From UHGV virus genome UHGV-2199876: a stretch of DNA of 29,731 nucleotides; one strand, 5' to 3'. This document shows positions 7,903 to 21,831 of the stretch, in pieces (the first letter of the stretch is position 1; the number at the start of each line of letters is the position of its first letter). The notes under the pieces are model-generated. The model was not told where the DNA came from. It searched no databases and worked only from the letters and a program-made list of their open reading frames with translations. The translations under genes were made by a program, and so were the position numbers. This stretch comes from a virus.

Positions 7903-9816
7903 ATGAGCAAAGTAAAAATCGGTGAATTAATAAACTCACTTGTTAGCGATGTTGAGTCAATAGATAACTCTGACCGTCCTCAAGGGGAGAAAACAAAAAA
8001 AATAAAGGCTGTTGCATTAAAATTTAAAAATGCATTATTTAATGACAAGCGAAAGTTTAGGGGTAAAGGATTAGAAAAAAGAATTACAGCCAACACATTC
8101 AATGCCTATATGAGCAGGGCCAGAAAACGGTTTGATGATAAACTTCATCATAGCTTTGAAAAAAATATACATCGCCTATCTGAAAAGTATCCTTTATATA
8201 ATGAGGAGCTATTATCATGGCTTTCTCTACCTGCTGCCGATATTCGCCAGAGAATGTCAGCTTTACAGGCAAAATTAAAATTAATTCTCCCTCTATCAGA
8301 AGATTTATCTAATATCAGAATTGGCGATAACAAAAATCATAATAAGTTATTAAAATTATCAAATAAATATAAAGAGTGGCAATTCGCCATTTCTGATTTA
8401 ACTAGCGATAACTGGAAAGATAAGCGCGATTATTTATATAAATTACTACAGCAAGGATCTGCCTTACTTGAGGAGTTGAATCAGCTAAAAGTTAACCATG
8501 AGATTCTCTATCATCTTCAACTAAGCCCTGCCGAACGCGCATCTATCCAGCAACGATGGGCGGACGTTCTGCACAATAAGAAACGTAACGTGGTGGTCAT
8601 TGATTACCCCAAATATATGCAAGCTATTTACGATATTATAAATAGCCCTGCTACATTAAATAATCTAAACACTCGTTCAGGTATGGCTCCTTTGGCATTT
8701 GCACTTGCTGCATTGTCAGGAAGACGAATGATTGAGATTATGTATCAAGGTACATTTACTGTTTCTGGTAAGTATACCGTTGATTTTTTAGGCCAAGCAA
8801 AAAAAAGAACTTCTGATGATATAACCAGAAAAATATATACATTATGCGAAGCAAAAACATTTGTTTATTTAATAAATGTACTTCGCTCATGCCCAGCAGC
8901 ATCTGATTTTGATGATGTCGTTAAAGGTTATGGAGATAACGACACACGCTCTGAAAACGGACGGATTAATGCCATATTAGCAAAGGCTTTTAACCCGTGG
9001 GTTAAATCATTTTTCAAAGATGACCGCCGTGTTTATAAAGATAGTCGTGCTATTTATGCCCGTATTGCGTATGAAATGTTTTTCCGCGTAGATCCTCGTT
9101 GGAAAAACGTAGATGAGGATGTTTTCTTTATGGAAATTTTAGGCCATGACGATGAAAACACTCAATTACACTATAAGCAATTCAAGCTGGCCAACTTCTC
9201 AAAGACATGGAGGCCAAATACTGGAAACGAAAATACCAGGCTGGAAGCATTGCAGCAGCTTGATGACGAAATGCCAGGATTCGCCAGAGGAGATGCCGGA
9301 GTTCGTCTGCATAACACAGTTAAGCAGCTGGTAGAGCAGGACCCCTCTATAAAAATCACGAACAGCACTCTAAGAGCATTCAAATTTAGCCCTACAATGA
9401 TTAGTCGATACCTAGAATTTGCTGCTGATGCTCTGGGGCAATTTGTTGGCGAAAATGGACAATGGCAGCTGAAAATAGATTCTCCAGAAATCGTTATGCC
9501 TGACGAAGAAGAGCTGGAAGCAATACCTGAACAGACGGATGAATTATCAGAGGATGACGATCTGGATGACGACGAAATTGAGATAGAGATAGAGGAAGAG
9601 GAAGAGGAAGAGGAAGAGGAAGAGAGCGTAGAAGAACAGCAACCGCCCGCGCCTTCTTCACCTGTATCTAAGCCGGTATTTAAGCCTGTGAGAAATATTG
9701 GTGATGGATCATACGTTGTTGAATTTCATTATAATGGCCAGAATTATGCTTGGTCCGGCAGTGCAAACAGCCCTATATCAGCAATGCAGTTAGCATGGCT
9801 GACATATTTCGGATAA
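7903..9816 (+). CDS. telN: Protelomerase (telomere resolvase) TelN
   Basis: 637-aa ORF closely matching N15 TelN as I remember it (MSKVKIGELIN..., RITANTFNAYMSRARKRFDDKLHHSF, VVVIDYP, GRINAILAKAFNPWVKSFF). Acidic C-terminal tract. SD GGAGAGG upstream. Confidence 0.93.
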   Translation: MSKVKIGELINSLVSDVESIDNSDRPQGEKTKKIKAVALKFKNALFNDKRKFRGKGLEKRITANTFNAYMSRARKRFDDKLHHSFEKNIHRLSEKYPLYNEELLSWLSLPAADIRQRMSALQAKLKLILPLSEDLSNIRIGDNKNHNKLLKLSNKYKEWQFAISDLTSDNWKDKRDYLYKLLQQGSALLEELNQLKVNHEILYHLQLSPAERASIQQRWADVLHNKKRNVVVIDYPKYMQAIYDIINSPATLNNLNTRSGMAPLAFALAALSGRRMIEIMYQGTFTVSGKYTVDFLGQAKKRTSDDITRKIYTLCEAKTFVYLINVLRSCPAASDFDDVVKGYGDNDTRSENGRINAILAKAFNPWVKSFFKDDRRVYKDSRAIYARIAYEMFFRVDPRWKNVDEDVFFMEILGHDDENTQLHYKQFKLANFSKTWRPNTGNENTRLEALQQLDDEMPGFARGDAGVRLHNTVKQLVEQDPSIKITNSTLRAFKFSPTMISRYLEFAADALGQFVGENGQWQLKIDSPEIVMPDEEELEAIPEQTDELSEDDDLDDDEIEIEIEEEEEEEEEEESVEEQQPPAPSSPVSKPVFKPVRNIGDGSYVVEFHYNGQNYAWSGSANSPISAMQLAWLTYFG

Positions 9817-9829
9817 AGCATACGGTAAA

Positions 9830-9856
9830 GGCACCGAATTATCGGTGCCTTGTTGT
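9830..9856. terminator. Bidirectional terminator hairpin between telN and convergent minus-strand genes
   Basis: GGCACCGA-atta-TCGGTGCC perfect 8-bp stem followed by TTGTTGTGT. Confidence 0.6.
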
Positions 9857-9861
9857 GTGGT

Positions 9862-10026
9862 CTACCTCGCCTGCCCCTTTTCGTCCTCATCCAACTTTCT
9901 GATAGCCGTAGAATCAATACCCGCCGCCATACACACATCAGATGCAACAAACCACGGTTCGCCGTTGATCATCACTACACGAACCTGATGCTCTTCCTGA
10001 AAGGAAAAGACTGCTAACGCGCTCAT
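9862..10026 (-). CDS. Truncated Bro-N / antirepressor N-terminal-domain protein (54 aa; below the ORF-track length cutoff)
   Basis: Hand translation gives MSALAVFSFQEEHQVRVVMINGEPWFVASDVCMAAGIDSTAIRKLDEDEKGQAR, which fits the Bro-N/Ant N-terminal signature (F.F....R....GEPWFVA.DV......D....LD.DEK). Its ATG overlaps the stop of the upstream ORF (ATGA) with a GGAGG SD. Confidence 0.55.
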   Translation of the reverse strand: MSALAVFSFQEEHQVRVVMINGEPWFVASDVCMAAGIDSTAIRKLDEDEKGQAR

Positions 10027-10256
10027 TCAGCCTCCTTATCGCGCAGCAAGTGCGACGAGAGAGACGCAGAATATCCCTGTGCTTCATGCGTTAACTCACA
10101 CGCAATCTGCAGAAGTTTTCCAGCCTCTGAGAGGTAAATCGACGCCTCACAACTGGAGACTGTCCGATGGGCTGATGATACGAGCGCATAGACCTGAGCC
10201 AGACGTTCATCCAACGATTCCAGCAGGCCAACAGTGTTCATTTTTACCTGATTCAT
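10023..10256 (-). CDS. Small protein translationally coupled to the Bro-N ORF (candidate icd-like leader gene)
   Basis: 77-aa ORF with a GAGGTGG SD 4 nt upstream. Its stop overlaps the start of the Bro-N ORF, the same coupling seen for icd-ant in P1 immI. The icd-like label is by arrangement only. Confidence 0.4.
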   Translation of the reverse strand: MNQVKMNTVGLLESLDERLAQVYALVSSAHRTVSSCEASIYLSEAGKLLQIACELTHEAQGYSASLSSHLLRDKEAE

Positions 10257-10423
10257 GCAGCCACCTCGCGCACCGGAATACGGGCAGACAATACCAGGAC
10301 AAACCGGCTGGCGAACTGGCGACGAGCTTCCCGTTCAGATGACGCGATAGTGGAAAGATGATGAATGTGGGACTTTTTGTCTGTGCGAACGACTGCCGCA
10401 AATTTGAATTTGAACATGGTATG

Positions 10424-10640
10424 CACTCCGTTTTATTGGTCGTGCTACCACCAGAGTTGCGAATCTCTTTATTGGTGGTAGCCCAGGCGGGGTTCGCAAT
10501 ACCGGTAAACGAAGAAACCGGCCCGACCGAAGTCAGCCCCACCTGAGCCACCATAATTCGGATATGCGCAGGTCTATACACACAAAAAAACACGCTGGCG
10601 CGTGTTGTGCGCTTCGTTTTGCCAGGATTGCGAAGTCCCG
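10424..10640 (-). promoter_or_regulatory. Candidate RNA regulatory leader (structured, with mutually complementary heptamers) upstream of the icd-like/Bro-N ORFs
   Basis: About 530 bp with no credible ORF. Perfect 10-bp stem GCTACCACCA...TGGTGGTAGC (10444-10482) with TTGCGAA in its loop; the complementary TTCGCAA at 10495-10501; a second TTGCGAA at 10629-10635. Confidence 0.3.
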
Positions 10641-10797
10641 ACTGCGGGATTTACCGCAGCGAGGTGACTTTACCTCCAAAACGACGCACACGTCAATAAT
10701 TTGCAAAGACATTTTACCCCGTGACCAGTCACGGGGACAGGTGTTTTTATAGTTTGCTTGAACGAGTGATCAGAAGTTGATCGTTAATCAAAGGCCA

Positions 10798-16266: not shown

Positions 16267-16863
16267 TCATCTACCCTCAACCATGAATGATTTGATCGTT
16301 CCGACTATTTGGTGAACAAATTCAAGATCGCTTTTCCTGAAGATGGCGCGTTGTGAATTTGTTCCGTCCAGATAGTAATTTTCATCATCAAAACGGGCCA
16401 GGCGCTGGATGGTGATATTTCCTGCAGTATCACGAACCAGAACATCCTCGCCGGGAACCAGTTCCAGCGCAGAATCGACCAGGAGAAAATCGCCTGGCTG
16501 ATAGTTTCCCTGCGCCAGATTGCTGATAGTTAACGCATAAACAGTATTGCGCTGGCTGATGAATGGCAGGAATCGCTCAGTATTTGGAACCTGTCCTGGC
16601 TTCCACTCTTCATCAGGTCCACTTTCAGTTGTGCCAATAACAGGAATGCGATCAGGGTCATATTCTGTCCCATACAGCACCCAATGCACTGGCTTGCGTA
16701 AGCATTTAGCCAGGGCAATACCTATCTCCAGTGACGGCATTACGTCGCCACGTTCTAAGTTTTGGACGCCTGCAATAGAGATATCGACAGCCTCAGCAAC
16801 TTCTCGCAACGTCAGCTTCATCTCTAAACGGCGTGCTTTCAGTCGTTCGCCTCGTGTTTTCAT
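16267..16863 (-). CDS. cB: Prophage repressor CB (cI-like: N-terminal HTH plus C-terminal S24/LexA-like domain)
   Basis: 198-aa ORF with an XRE-type HTH (LTLREVAEAVDISIAGVQNLERG) and a C-terminal region with the character of lambda cI / LexA S24 domains. Divergent from the cro-like gene. Confidence 0.85.
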   Translation of the reverse strand: MKTRGERLKARRLEMKLTLREVAEAVDISIAGVQNLERGDVMPSLEIGIALAKCLRKPVHWVLYGTEYDPDRIPVIGTTESGPDEEWKPGQVPNTERFLPFISQRNTVYALTISNLAQGNYQPGDFLLVDSALELVPGEDVLVRDTAGNITIQRLARFDDENYYLDGTNSQRAIFRKSDLEFVHQIVGTIKSFMVEGR

Positions 16864-20661: not shown

Positions 20662-20904
20662 ATGGATAAAAAGGCATTGCTTTTTGAAATGATACGAAAA
20701 CGGAGCGAAAAGAGCTTTTCTGATGGTGGTGATGGGTTTGTTTTCGCTTCGATGCTTGCTTTTGATGTTGGGTTAAATAGCAGAATTGTTAAAAGGATGC
20801 TTGATTCTGCTGTCCGTACTGGACTTCTTGAGAAAGTTGATCGTGGCATAGGGAGAGAGCATAAGTATCGGGTCACACAGCAGTTTACGCAGTTAATTCA
20901 TTGA
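20662..20904 (+). CDS. Hypothetical small protein (80 aa), possible DNA-binding
   Basis: ORF with a GGAGGG SD, preceded by a GTGAC-N2-GTCAC palindrome. Confidence 0.4.
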   Translation: MDKKALLFEMIRKRSEKSFSDGGDGFVFASMLAFDVGLNSRIVKRMLDSAVRTGLLEKVDRGIGREHKYRVTQQFTQLIH

Positions 20905-20932
20905 AAATTGACCGTAAAGTTTGAGTTTTATC

Positions 20933-20948
20933 CTGTAATTTTATACAG
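20933..20948. promoter_or_regulatory. LexA (SOS) box CTGT-N8-ACAG
   Basis: cCTGTaattttatACAGta fits the CTGT-(AT)4-ACAG consensus. Lies about 40 bp upstream of the 20987 ORF and overlaps likely promoter hexamers. Confidence 0.55.
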
Positions 20949-20986
20949 TATAAAAAACCTTTTTTAGTTAAATGGTATGAGATTTA

Positions 20987-21190
20987 ATGTCTGAAGCAGC
21001 CGTATCAACTCTTGAACAACTCGATTCAAATTTGAGAGATATTGACGCCGTTCTGGATCTGGTTAGCGTCACCCTGGCTTCTCCAGAAGCCAGCCTACAT
21101 ATTGGTGAGGTTTCACGACTCATCAACATGTCGCGAGAGATTGCCCAGCATTGTCAGAAAACTATCGCTGTTGAGCGTTCACATCATTGA
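20987..21190 (+). CDS. SOS-controlled small protein (candidate AntC-like antirepressor)
   Basis: 67-aa ORF directly downstream of the LexA box. N15 is reported to have a LexA-regulated small antirepressor, antC. Confidence 0.45.
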   Translation: MSEAAVSTLEQLDSNLRDIDAVLDLVSVTLASPEASLHIGEVSRLINMSREIAQHCQKTIAVERSHH

Positions 21191-21232
21191 TGCACACCCC
21201 GCCCTTCTGGACGGGGTAGTAAAAGAGTCTAA

Positions 21233-21520
21233 TTAATAAACAGCGCGAATATCGATGGTTGCGCCGCAGGCATGAGCATATTTAGCCAAAGTTTTCATAC
21301 TTGCCCCTAAAGGATTGCTTTCCAGGCGGCTGATGGCTGACGGTCGCAACCCCATTCGTTCAGCCAGAGCTGATTTCGTTAAACCTGCTCTTTCCCTCAT
21401 TTCGTATAACATTTCGACCATCTCCAGCTCTTTATCGGCCTCTTCATATCCTTTGATGGCTTCTGGAGTGTTGAGAAGTTTTTCTTTTACTTCGTTAAAC
21501 GGGATGCCTTTCGCTTTCAT
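21233..21520 (-). CDS. HTH (XRE-family) antitoxin
   Basis: 95-aa ORF with an HTH (LTKSALAERMGLRPSAISRLE). Its start overlaps the stop of the upstream toxin-like ORF (HigB-HigA-type order). Confidence 0.7.
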   Translation of the reverse strand: MKAKGIPFNEVKEKLLNTPEAIKGYEEADKELEMVEMLYEMRERAGLTKSALAERMGLRPSAISRLESNPLGASMKTLAKYAHACGATIDIRAVY

Positions 21521-21831
21521 CAGTTCATCTCCTTCAGGCGAGTTCTGGCGATTTCGATAGCCTTCACCGGTGTTTTCTGTGTCTTTTTTACAAATGCATG
21601 CAATAGATAAATTTCGTTACCAGTCGCGTAGGCGTACAGCGTTCTTGCGATGTTTTTATCCCCTACTCGTAGTTCAAAAAGCCCTCCACCTATTACACGG
21701 CTATGGGGCATCTTCAGTTTGTTGCCTTCCTTCTCCAGTCGCTCAATTAATCTGGTCATGCGACCTCGCAAATCATCTGGTAGTTCAAGCAGTTCATCCA
21801 GTGCTGCAGGGTGGGTTATCACGTTAAACAT
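21520..21831 (-). CDS. Gp49-like (HigB/RelE-superfamily) toxin
   Basis: 103 aa with the 'phage-derived Gp49-like' character (KMPHSRVIGGGLFELRVGD...ARTLYAY...IYLLHAFVKKTQKTP). The family is named after N15 gene 49. Confidence 0.7.
   Translation of the reverse strand: MFNVITHPAALDELLELPDDLRGRMTRLIERLEKEGNKLKMPHSRVIGGGLFELRVGDKNIARTLYAYATGNEIYLLHAFVKKTQKTPVKAIEIARTRLKEMN

What the first reader, a model, noticed from the sequence alone, without database searches (positions are those of the whole stretch)
20905..21190. LexA box directly upstream of a 67-aa ORF: candidate SOS-inducible antirepressor
A well-formed CTGT-N8-ACAG box with an AT-rich spacer (20933-20948) overlaps promoter-like hexamers ahead of a small ORF. 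No other LexA-like box was found in the intergenic regions I checked by eye. The CB repressor has an S24-like domain but may not be the only induction route. N15 is reported to use a LexA-controlled small antirepressor (AntC), which matches this arrangement.
Basis: partly seen in the sequence, partly recalled or inferred. Interest (0 to 1): 0.6.

Follow-up and report, generated by a model that had tools for sequence, protein, structure and literature searches.

The report
LexA-controlled antC antirepressor of N15-like phage
This is the N15-type antC gene, a small antirepressor kept silent by the host LexA protein until DNA damage, found here in an N15-like linear-plasmid prophage of E. coli; it is real, but the system was described in phage N15 in 2007.

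Summary
A 20-nt LexA operator (TCCTGTAATTTTATACAGTA, 20931-20950) lies 36 nt upstream of a 67-codon ORF (20987-21190). It is the only SOS-box-like site in the window. The bare CTGT-N8-ACAG pattern is not rare (33 of 100 shuffles have one). The full 20-mer scores like a genuine E. coli operator, and 0 of 200 random windows reach it.

The window matches Escherichia phage YDC107_1, a Ravinvirus (N15-like). The ORF is the syntenic ortholog (52-56% identity) of an unannotated N15 ORF between genes 47 and 48. That ORF carries one of only two strong LexA boxes in N15, so I identify it as antC (Mardanov and Ravin 2007).

Box and ORF co-occur at a fixed 36-40 nt spacing in all 51 IMG/VR loci and in the GenBank relatives. 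The box is the best-conserved stretch of the intergenic region.

The window's CB repressor has only a degenerate S24-like domain, with no catalytic Ser and Lys replaced by Gln. Antirepression is therefore probably the main SOS route, not a back-up.

Novelty is low: this is a new member of a known kind. Every database calls the family "hypothetical protein".

The parts
20921..20926 (+). -35-like hexamer TTGAGT of the inferred antC promoter
   Evidence: TTTG at 20920-20923 is invariant in 29 distinct upstream regions. It lies 17 nt from TACAGT. The pair matches only 8 of 12 consensus positions, so the strict scan does not report it. Inferred, not mapped.
20931..20950 (.). LexA operator (SOS box) TCCTGTAATTTTATACAGTA; core CTGT-N8-ACAG at 20933-20948
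   Evidence: Only site in the window. It scores 20.7 bits and 0 of 200 random windows reach that. A strong box is present 36-40 nt before the ATG in 51 of 51 IMG/VR loci and in N15, KpLi5, NAR688 and MStein. phiKO2 has one core change, ATGT.
20944..20949 (+). -10-like hexamer TACAGT, lying inside the right half of the LexA box
   Evidence: Invariant in all relatives. Geometry. Its function as a -10 element is inferred.
20974..20977 (+). Conserved GGTA, a candidate weak ribosome-binding site 9 nt before the ATG
   Evidence: It is the only invariant block between the box and the start codon. Inference only.
20987..21190 (+). antC ortholog: 67-aa small antirepressor, predicted to be a two-helix hairpin
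   Evidence: Ortholog of the N15 ORF at 39619-39831. Matches phrog_6301 (E = 2e-35) and phrog_10889 'anti-repressor' (E = 6e-8). Coding signature over 30 distinct alleles: differences per site at codon positions 1/2/3 are 0.27/0.17/0.47, with no internal stops. AlphaFold model has pLDDT 93, with helices at 3-31 and 33-66.
21197..21216 (.). GC-rich hairpin CCCCGCCCTTCTGGACGGGG between antC and the convergent toxin-antitoxin operon; a possible terminator
   Evidence: Folds at -15.9 kcal/mol, but z is only -1.75 and there is no T-run, so the terminator scan does not report it. N15 has a stronger hairpin at the same place. Weak evidence.
16267..16863 (-). cB prophage repressor, the presumed target of AntC
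   Evidence: 78% identical to N15 CB. Contains HTH_3 plus a degenerate S24-like domain (21.3 bits against a cut-off of 23.3). The catalytic Ser is absent and the catalytic Lys is replaced by Gln.

Best explanation
This is the antC module of an N15-like (Ravinvirus) linear-plasmid prophage. In the lysogen, host LexA binds the operator at 20931-20950. That operator covers the -10 region of a weak promoter, so antC is kept silent. DNA damage activates RecA, LexA cleaves itself, and antC is transcribed. The 67-aa helical-hairpin AntC protein then binds the CB repressor and takes it off its operators. CB cannot cleave itself, so this step is what starts lytic growth. The sequence anatomy, orthology, conservation and loss of the CB catalytic residues are shown here. 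LexA binding, SOS induction and AntC-CB binding are inferred from the N15 experiments and were not tested for this phage.
For: The window is 100% identical over the tested kilobase to Escherichia phage YDC107_1, a Ravinvirus. The operator is unique in the window and scores at operator level. The ORF is 52-56% identical to an N15 ORF in the same position, between gp47 and the gene 48/49 toxin-antitoxin pair. A whole-genome scan of N15 finds only two strong LexA boxes: one before the umuD-like gene 26 and one 37 nt before this ORF. N15 antC is published as a LexA-controlled antirepressor acting on CB (Mardanov and Ravin 2007, as cited in PMC3121763, PMC4488713 and PMC11652158). All 51 IMG/VR loci (27 distinct) carry a box scoring 17-25 bits, 36-40 nt before the ATG, and nothing else in each 3.2-kb locus scores above about 10 bits. 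The right half of the box, TATACAGTA, is invariant while its flanks vary. The codon-position pattern shows that the ORF is coding. CB lacks the catalytic Ser and Lys. The literature reports no RecA cleavage site or catalytic Ser/Lys in N15 and phiKO2 CB (PMC4997575) and no cleavage of the N15 repressor in vivo (PMC10432266).
Against: I could not read the primary N15 paper. Equating antC with the N15 ORF at 39619 therefore rests on deduction and on my recollection, not on printed coordinates. No consensus sigma-70 promoter is detected. AntC here is only about 52% identical to the N15 protein, and AntC identity does not track CB identity tightly: MStein CB is 97% identical to N15 CB while its AntC is 59% identical. 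Specificity for this phage's CB is therefore assumed. No database names the family, and there is no solved or similar structure.
Confidence: 0.9

Rival explanations
1. The LexA-like box is a chance palindrome in an AT-rich intergenic region, and the small ORF is expressed only by read-through from the upstream early operon (gp43-gp47). It would then have no SOS control.
For: CTGT-N8-ACAG occurs by chance in 33 of 100 shuffles. The region has GC 0.23. No strict promoter or terminator separates gp47 from the ORF.
Against: The 20-mer score is reached by 0 of 200 random windows. The box is the most conserved part of the intergenic region in 29 distinct relatives, at a fixed distance from the ATG. 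N15 antC is published as a member of the SOS regulon (PMC3121763, PMC11652158).
Confidence: 0.03
2. The module is SOS-controlled, but the protein does something other than inactivate CB. It might, for example, modulate RecA or LexA as DinI does, or act on the neighbouring toxin-antitoxin pair. Induction would then proceed by another route, such as the immA anti-immunity locus or CB cleavage.
For: AntC is fast-evolving and only about 52% identical to N15 AntC. No domain or structural match reveals a function. A second antirepressor locus, immA with a BRO-N protein, is present in the genome.
Against: Orthology and strict synteny with the N15 gene. The core motifs are conserved (DAVLD-VS, SPEASLH, RL--MSR). 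CB lacks the residues needed for self-cleavage. The ORF matches a PHROG family labelled 'anti-repressor'.
Confidence: 0.06
3. RecA-stimulated self-cleavage of CB, through its S24-like domain, is the main induction route. The small ORF would be accessory.
For: CB has a weak Peptidase_S24 match (E = 2e-4). RefSeq names N15 gene 38 a 'LexA family transcriptional regulator'.
Against: The S24 match is below Pfam's gathering score. In the alignment with LexA, lambda CI and UmuD, the catalytic Ser position is a gap and the catalytic Lys is Gln. The N15 repressor is not cleaved after ciprofloxacin treatment (PMC10432266). The catalytic residues are reported absent from N15 and phiKO2 CB (PMC4997575).
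Confidence: 0.02

Closest known systems
AntC of coliphage N15 (Mardanov and Ravin 2007, J Bacteriol 189:6333)
   Same: Orthologous small protein (52-56% identity) in the same genomic slot, between gp47 and the gene 48/49 toxin-antitoxin pair. The LexA box lies at the same distance from the ATG. The partner is the same kind of non-cleavable CB repressor (78% identical). The phage genus is the same, Ravinvirus.
   Different: Nearly half of the residues differ. The window allele belongs to a separate E. coli subgroup: 67 aa, with a C-terminal ...AVERSHH tail. The in-frame upstream ATG used by gene callers in the N15 type is closed by a stop codon here. Nothing has been tested experimentally in this phage.
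Tum of coliphage 186
   Same: A LexA-repressed antirepressor that inactivates a non-cleavable prophage repressor on SOS induction (PMC3121763).
   Different: Tum is 146 aa and its second half is DinI-like (PMC3121763). I found no sequence relationship to the 67-aa protein here: it has no Pfam or NCBIfam hit.
GfoA/GftA antirepressors of Salmonella Gifsy prophages
   Same: Small, LexA-controlled antirepressors encoded outside the immunity region that bind the repressor rather than cleave it (PMC3121763).
   Different: Unrelated in sequence and carried by integrated lambdoid prophages. They cross-act on non-cognate repressors, which is not known for AntC.
N15 immA anti-immunity system (antA/antB/icd)
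   Same: A second antirepressor locus of the same phage type. It is present in this window at about 9565-10770 (PMC4488713).
   Different: It is controlled by a small processed RNA and a secondary repressor, not by LexA (Ravin 1999, as cited in PMC4488713 and PMC10432266). Its protein is a larger BRO-N/Ant type.

Membership tests
N15-type AntC (LexA-controlled antirepressor of Ravinvirus-like telomere phages) | Sequence homology to N15 AntC over the full length | tested here: met
   tblastn against N15 gives E = 9e-16 with 55.6% identity over residues 1-63. The alignment has no gaps until the C-terminal tails and shares invariant motifs. The window and N15 proteins hit the same PHROG, phrog_6301. 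Caveat: identifying the N15 ORF as antC is a deduction, because the paper is not held.
N15-type AntC (LexA-controlled antirepressor of Ravinvirus-like telomere phages) | Conserved position: after the gp46/gp47 homologs and convergent with the gene 48/49 toxin-antitoxin pair | tested here: met
   Annotated maps of YDC107_1, N15, phiKO2 and KpLi5. Pfam assignments of the neighbouring genes.
N15-type AntC (LexA-controlled antirepressor of Ravinvirus-like telomere phages) | LexA operator within the promoter region | tested here: met
   A 20.7-bit box lies 36 nt before the ATG. The same arrangement occurs in 51 of 51 IMG/VR loci and in the GenBank relatives.
N15-type AntC (LexA-controlled antirepressor of Ravinvirus-like telomere phages) | LexA binds the operator, and transcription is induced by DNA damage in a lexA-dependent way | not testable with these tools
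   Requires EMSA or footprinting and reporter assays. Only sequence evidence is available.
N15-type AntC (LexA-controlled antirepressor of Ravinvirus-like telomere phages) | The protein binds CB and abolishes its operator binding | not testable with these tools
   The structure tool models single chains only. The AlphaFold monomer is a confident two-helix hairpin, which says nothing about binding.
N15-type AntC (LexA-controlled antirepressor of Ravinvirus-like telomere phages) | The cognate prophage repressor cannot self-cleave | tested here: met
   Peptidase_S24 match is below the cut-off. The Ser119-equivalent is absent and the Lys156-equivalent is Gln in both the window and N15 CB. This agrees with PMC4997575 and PMC10432266.
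E. coli SOS regulon operator (LexA box) | CTGT-N8-ACAG palindrome with an AT-rich spacer and an overall score within the range of known operators | tested here: met
   The score of 20.7 bits is above the median of the 26 training operators (19.6). The heterology-index-like value is 4.5-7.6, within the training range of 1.2-9.5. The matrix was built from operator sequences I recalled, not from a curated file.

The most novel reading that the evidence does not exclude
The E. coli subgroup of AntC, to which this allele belongs, is about 50% diverged from N15 AntC, while its CB is 78% identical to N15 CB. The most novel reading not excluded is that AntC alleles have distinct repressor specificities. 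They could then mediate, or prevent, cross-induction between co-resident N15-like linear plasmid prophages, in the way Gifsy antirepressors cross-talk. AntC might do this by docking on the degenerate S24-like domain of CB.
Probability: 0.15. Interest if true: 0.4.

Novelty: new member of a known kind. Interest (0 to 1): 0.15.

Why it matters
It explains how this common E. coli linear-plasmid prophage senses DNA damage even though its repressor cannot self-cleave. The region occurs in 12 of 5,426 complete E. coli genomes, and the exact protein has been seen on at least 1,000 contigs. The practical value lies in annotation. The AntC family is labelled "hypothetical protein" in every source examined and is not annotated at all in the N15 reference record, although its function was published in 2007. 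Pairing the conserved box with the ORF would allow all members to be named. It adds nothing new to the biology of SOS-controlled antirepression.

Tried and rejected
- **Primary paper:** I tried to read Mardanov and Ravin 2007 by DOI and by PMC id; it is not held. Five literature searches found only secondary citations of antC, none giving coordinates.
- **Family scans of the 67-aa protein:** Pfam and NCBIfam gave no hit.
- **Structure comparisons:** The PDB sequence search found only a chance match at E = 1.1. Foldseek of the model against the PDB and against viral structures returned nothing. A two-helix hairpin is too simple to be informative.
- **Family breadth:** The exhaustive search of 1.84 billion representatives found only 5 clusters, so the family is narrow. 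The most distant hit, P0088 (42% identity), could not be placed in any phage record.
- **AntC-CB covariation:** The correlation of pairwise identities is r = 0.70 on six phages. The MStein/N15 pair (CB 97%, AntC 59%) argues against tight co-evolution, so I rejected this as evidence.
- **Promoter and terminator:** The strict promoter scan found none. The downstream hairpin is not significant as a terminator.
- **Window origin:** I suspected the window contained the palindromic duplication seen in record CP025712.1. It has no inverted repeat of 200 nt or more.

Full report
**What is in the sequence**

The stretch 20905-20986 is an AT-rich intergenic region (GC 0.23 against 0.46 for the window). 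It follows an 80-codon ORF that ends at 20904.

It contains CTGTAATTTTATACAG at exactly 20933-20948. This is the only CTGT-N8-ACAG in the window on either strand. That pattern alone proves little, because 33 of 100 dinucleotide-preserving shuffles contain one.

I therefore scored the full 20-mer, TCCTGTAATTTTATACAGTA (20931-20950). The matrix was symmetrised and built from 26 E. coli LexA operators that I recalled from the literature. This is my own knowledge, not a curated file.
- The site scores 20.7 bits, above the median of the training operators (19.6; minimum 12.6).
- The next best site in the window scores 9.6.
- None of 200 random windows reaches 20.7.

The ORF is as described: ATG 20987 to TGA 21188-21190, 67 codons.

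**Where the window comes from**

The kilobase around the finding is 100% identical to Escherichia phage YDC107_1 (CP025712.1, genus Ravinvirus) and 99.6% identical to phage PhiR46_1. The surrounding gene order is that of the linear plasmid-prophage N15: protelomerase, immA, repA, cB, cro, Q, exonuclease, gp46, gp47, then the 67-aa ORF, which the record labels 'putative gp47'. Next comes a convergent Gp49-like toxin with an HTH antitoxin pair, then gp50, gp51 and a methylase.

In complete E. coli genomes the region occurs in 12 of 5,426, always on plasmid records, most of them about 46 kb long (range 36-75 kb). The ORF is always called 'hypothetical protein' there.

**Identity of the ORF**

tblastn finds the protein in 13 phage records, all N15-like. 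They comprise YDC107_1 and PhiR46_1 themselves, N15, phiKO2, six Klebsiella phages and one Enterobacter phage. Identity to the relatives is 52-57% over nearly the full length.

In N15 the match (39619-39807; the ORF runs to 39831) falls in a gap between genes 47 and 48 that the record does not annotate. The DNA alignment shows the same layout: box, 36-37 nt, ATG.

N15 antC is described in papers I could read as a separate locus. Its product acts against the CB repressor, and it is under direct LexA control (PMC3121763, PMC4488713 and PMC11652158, all citing Mardanov and Ravin 2007). The primary paper is not held, so I tested the identification indirectly. A matrix scan of the whole N15 genome finds only two strong LexA boxes:
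- one of 25.0 bits directly upstream of the umuD-like gene 26;
- one of 21.3 bits at 39562-39581, 37 nt before this ORF.

The LexA-controlled antirepressor gene must therefore be this ORF. That agrees with my recollection of the paper.

The window protein matches phrog_6301 (unknown function, E = 2e-35). It matches phrog_10889, labelled 'anti-repressor', more weakly (E = 6e-8).

**Conservation**

A scan of IMG/VR with the family alignment returned 51 loci, of which 27 are distinct in upstream sequence plus protein.
- Every one has a box scoring 17-25 bits that ends 36-40 nt before the ATG.
- Nothing else in each 3.2-kb locus scores above about 10 bits.

I aligned 29 distinct upstream regions. 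The invariant blocks are TTTG (20920-23), TGT, TT, TATACAGTA (the box, especially its right half), GGTA (20974-77) and the ATG. The flanks vary freely. phiKO2 has a single core change, ATGT.

This footprint supports a promoter with -35 TTGAGT (20921-26), a 17-nt spacer and -10 TACAGT (20944-49). The -10 hexamer lies inside the operator, so bound LexA would occlude it. This is an inference. The pair matches only 8 of 12 consensus positions, and the strict scan reports no promoter.

The ORF is coding. Over 30 distinct alleles there are no internal stops, and the mean differences per site at codon positions 1/2/3 are 0.27/0.17/0.47.

In N15-type relatives, gene callers often start five codons further upstream (MVYDS-M...). 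In the window that in-frame ATG (20972) is closed after two codons (ATGGTATGA). This points to the shared ATG as the real start.

**The protein**

It has no Pfam or NCBIfam hit and no PDB relative. AlphaFold2 with a 25-sequence alignment gives a confident two-helix hairpin (pLDDT 93; helices 3-31 and 33-66). Foldseek finds nothing comparable in the PDB or in viral models.

The family is narrow. It has 39 clusters at 90% identity and 5 representatives at 50% identity among 1.84 billion proteins. All are unnamed.

Its conserved core is LD--L-D-DAVLD-VS---SPEASLH----RL--MSR----C.

**The target**

CB (16267-16863, minus strand) is 78% identical to N15 CB. It has an HTH_3 domain and a Peptidase_S24 match below the gathering score (21.3 bits against a cut-off of 23.3).

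I aligned it with LexA, lambda CI and UmuD, using sequences recalled from memory; the LexA numbering checks out, with A84-G85, S119 and K156 in the expected places. In that alignment the G-x-S-M catalytic Ser position is a gap, and the catalytic Lys (TVKRL in LexA) is Gln (TIQRL). This holds for both the window and the N15 proteins.

This agrees with PMC4997575, which reports no RecA cleavage site or catalytic Ser/Lys in N15 and phiKO2 CB. It also agrees with PMC10432266, which shows that the N15 repressor is not cleaved after ciprofloxacin treatment. Self-cleavage is not a plausible route.

**Mechanism**

The model has four steps:
1. LexA represses antC in the lysogen.
2. DNA damage leads to LexA cleavage.
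3. AntC is made.
4. AntC binds CB and lifts repression of the lytic promoters.

What is shown here is the anatomy, the orthology, the conservation and the dead protease domain of CB. LexA binding, inducibility and AntC-CB binding are inferred from N15.

No terminator was detected between gp47 and antC. Read-through from the early operon could therefore add AntC once lytic transcription starts, giving positive feedback. This is speculation.

**Rivals**

- A chance box is excluded by the score and the conservation.
- A different function for the protein cannot be excluded by computation. AntC evolves fast (51-75% identity among different phages whose CBs are 77-97% identical) and does not covary tightly with CB. 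Orthology and synteny make a different function unlikely.
- CB self-cleavage is contradicted by the missing catalytic residues.

**Verdict**

This is the antC module already described for N15, in a different Ravinvirus of E. coli. It is a new member of a known kind and of low interest, apart from the annotation gap.

Noticed in passing
window 21233-21831 (- strand): A Gp49-like toxin (PF05973, E = 2.5e-29) and an HTH_3 antitoxin form a HigB/HigA-like pair. They are homologous to N15 genes 49 and 48 and convergent with antC.
   Followed up: partly
window 20972-20980: An in-frame ATG lies 15 nt upstream of the antC start. Gene callers use the equivalent ATG as the start in N15-type relatives (MVYDS-M...). 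In the window it is closed by TGA after two codons (ATGGTATGA), so the shared ATG at 20987 is probably the real start in the family.
   Followed up: partly
L008 (N15 genome) 21658-21677: N15 has a second, even stronger LexA box (TACTGTATAAAAAAACAGTT, 25 bits) directly upstream of its umuD-like gene 26. No equivalent site exists in the window or in record CP025712.1.
   Followed up: partly
L002 1501-1713 (N15 39619-39831) and all homologs: The AntC family is not annotated in the N15 reference record. It is called 'hypothetical protein', 'Gp47' or 'putative gp47' everywhere else, including RefSeq PGAP annotation, although its function was published in 2007.
   Followed up: yes
L009 (CP025712.1) 27179-36551 versus 36934-46299: The YDC107_1 record carries an inverted duplicate of the cB-repA-immA-protelomerase arm, with split gene calls in the second copy. 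This looks like an assembly that reads through the hairpin telomere. The window itself has no inverted repeat of 200 nt or more.
   Followed up: partly
window about 9565-10770 (- strand): A BRO-N domain protein, a gp31 homolog and a 'putative secondary immunity repressor' correspond to the N15 immA anti-immunity locus. This is a second antirepressor system and is not LexA-controlled (PMC4488713).
   Followed up: no
window 16267-16863 versus relatives (alignment A6): The window's CB is an outlier. It is 77-78% identical to the CBs of N15, phiKO2, KpLi5, MStein and NAR688, which are 85-97% identical to one another. Substitutions are spread over both the HTH and C-terminal domains, so this E. coli lineage may be heteroimmune to N15.
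   Followed up: partly
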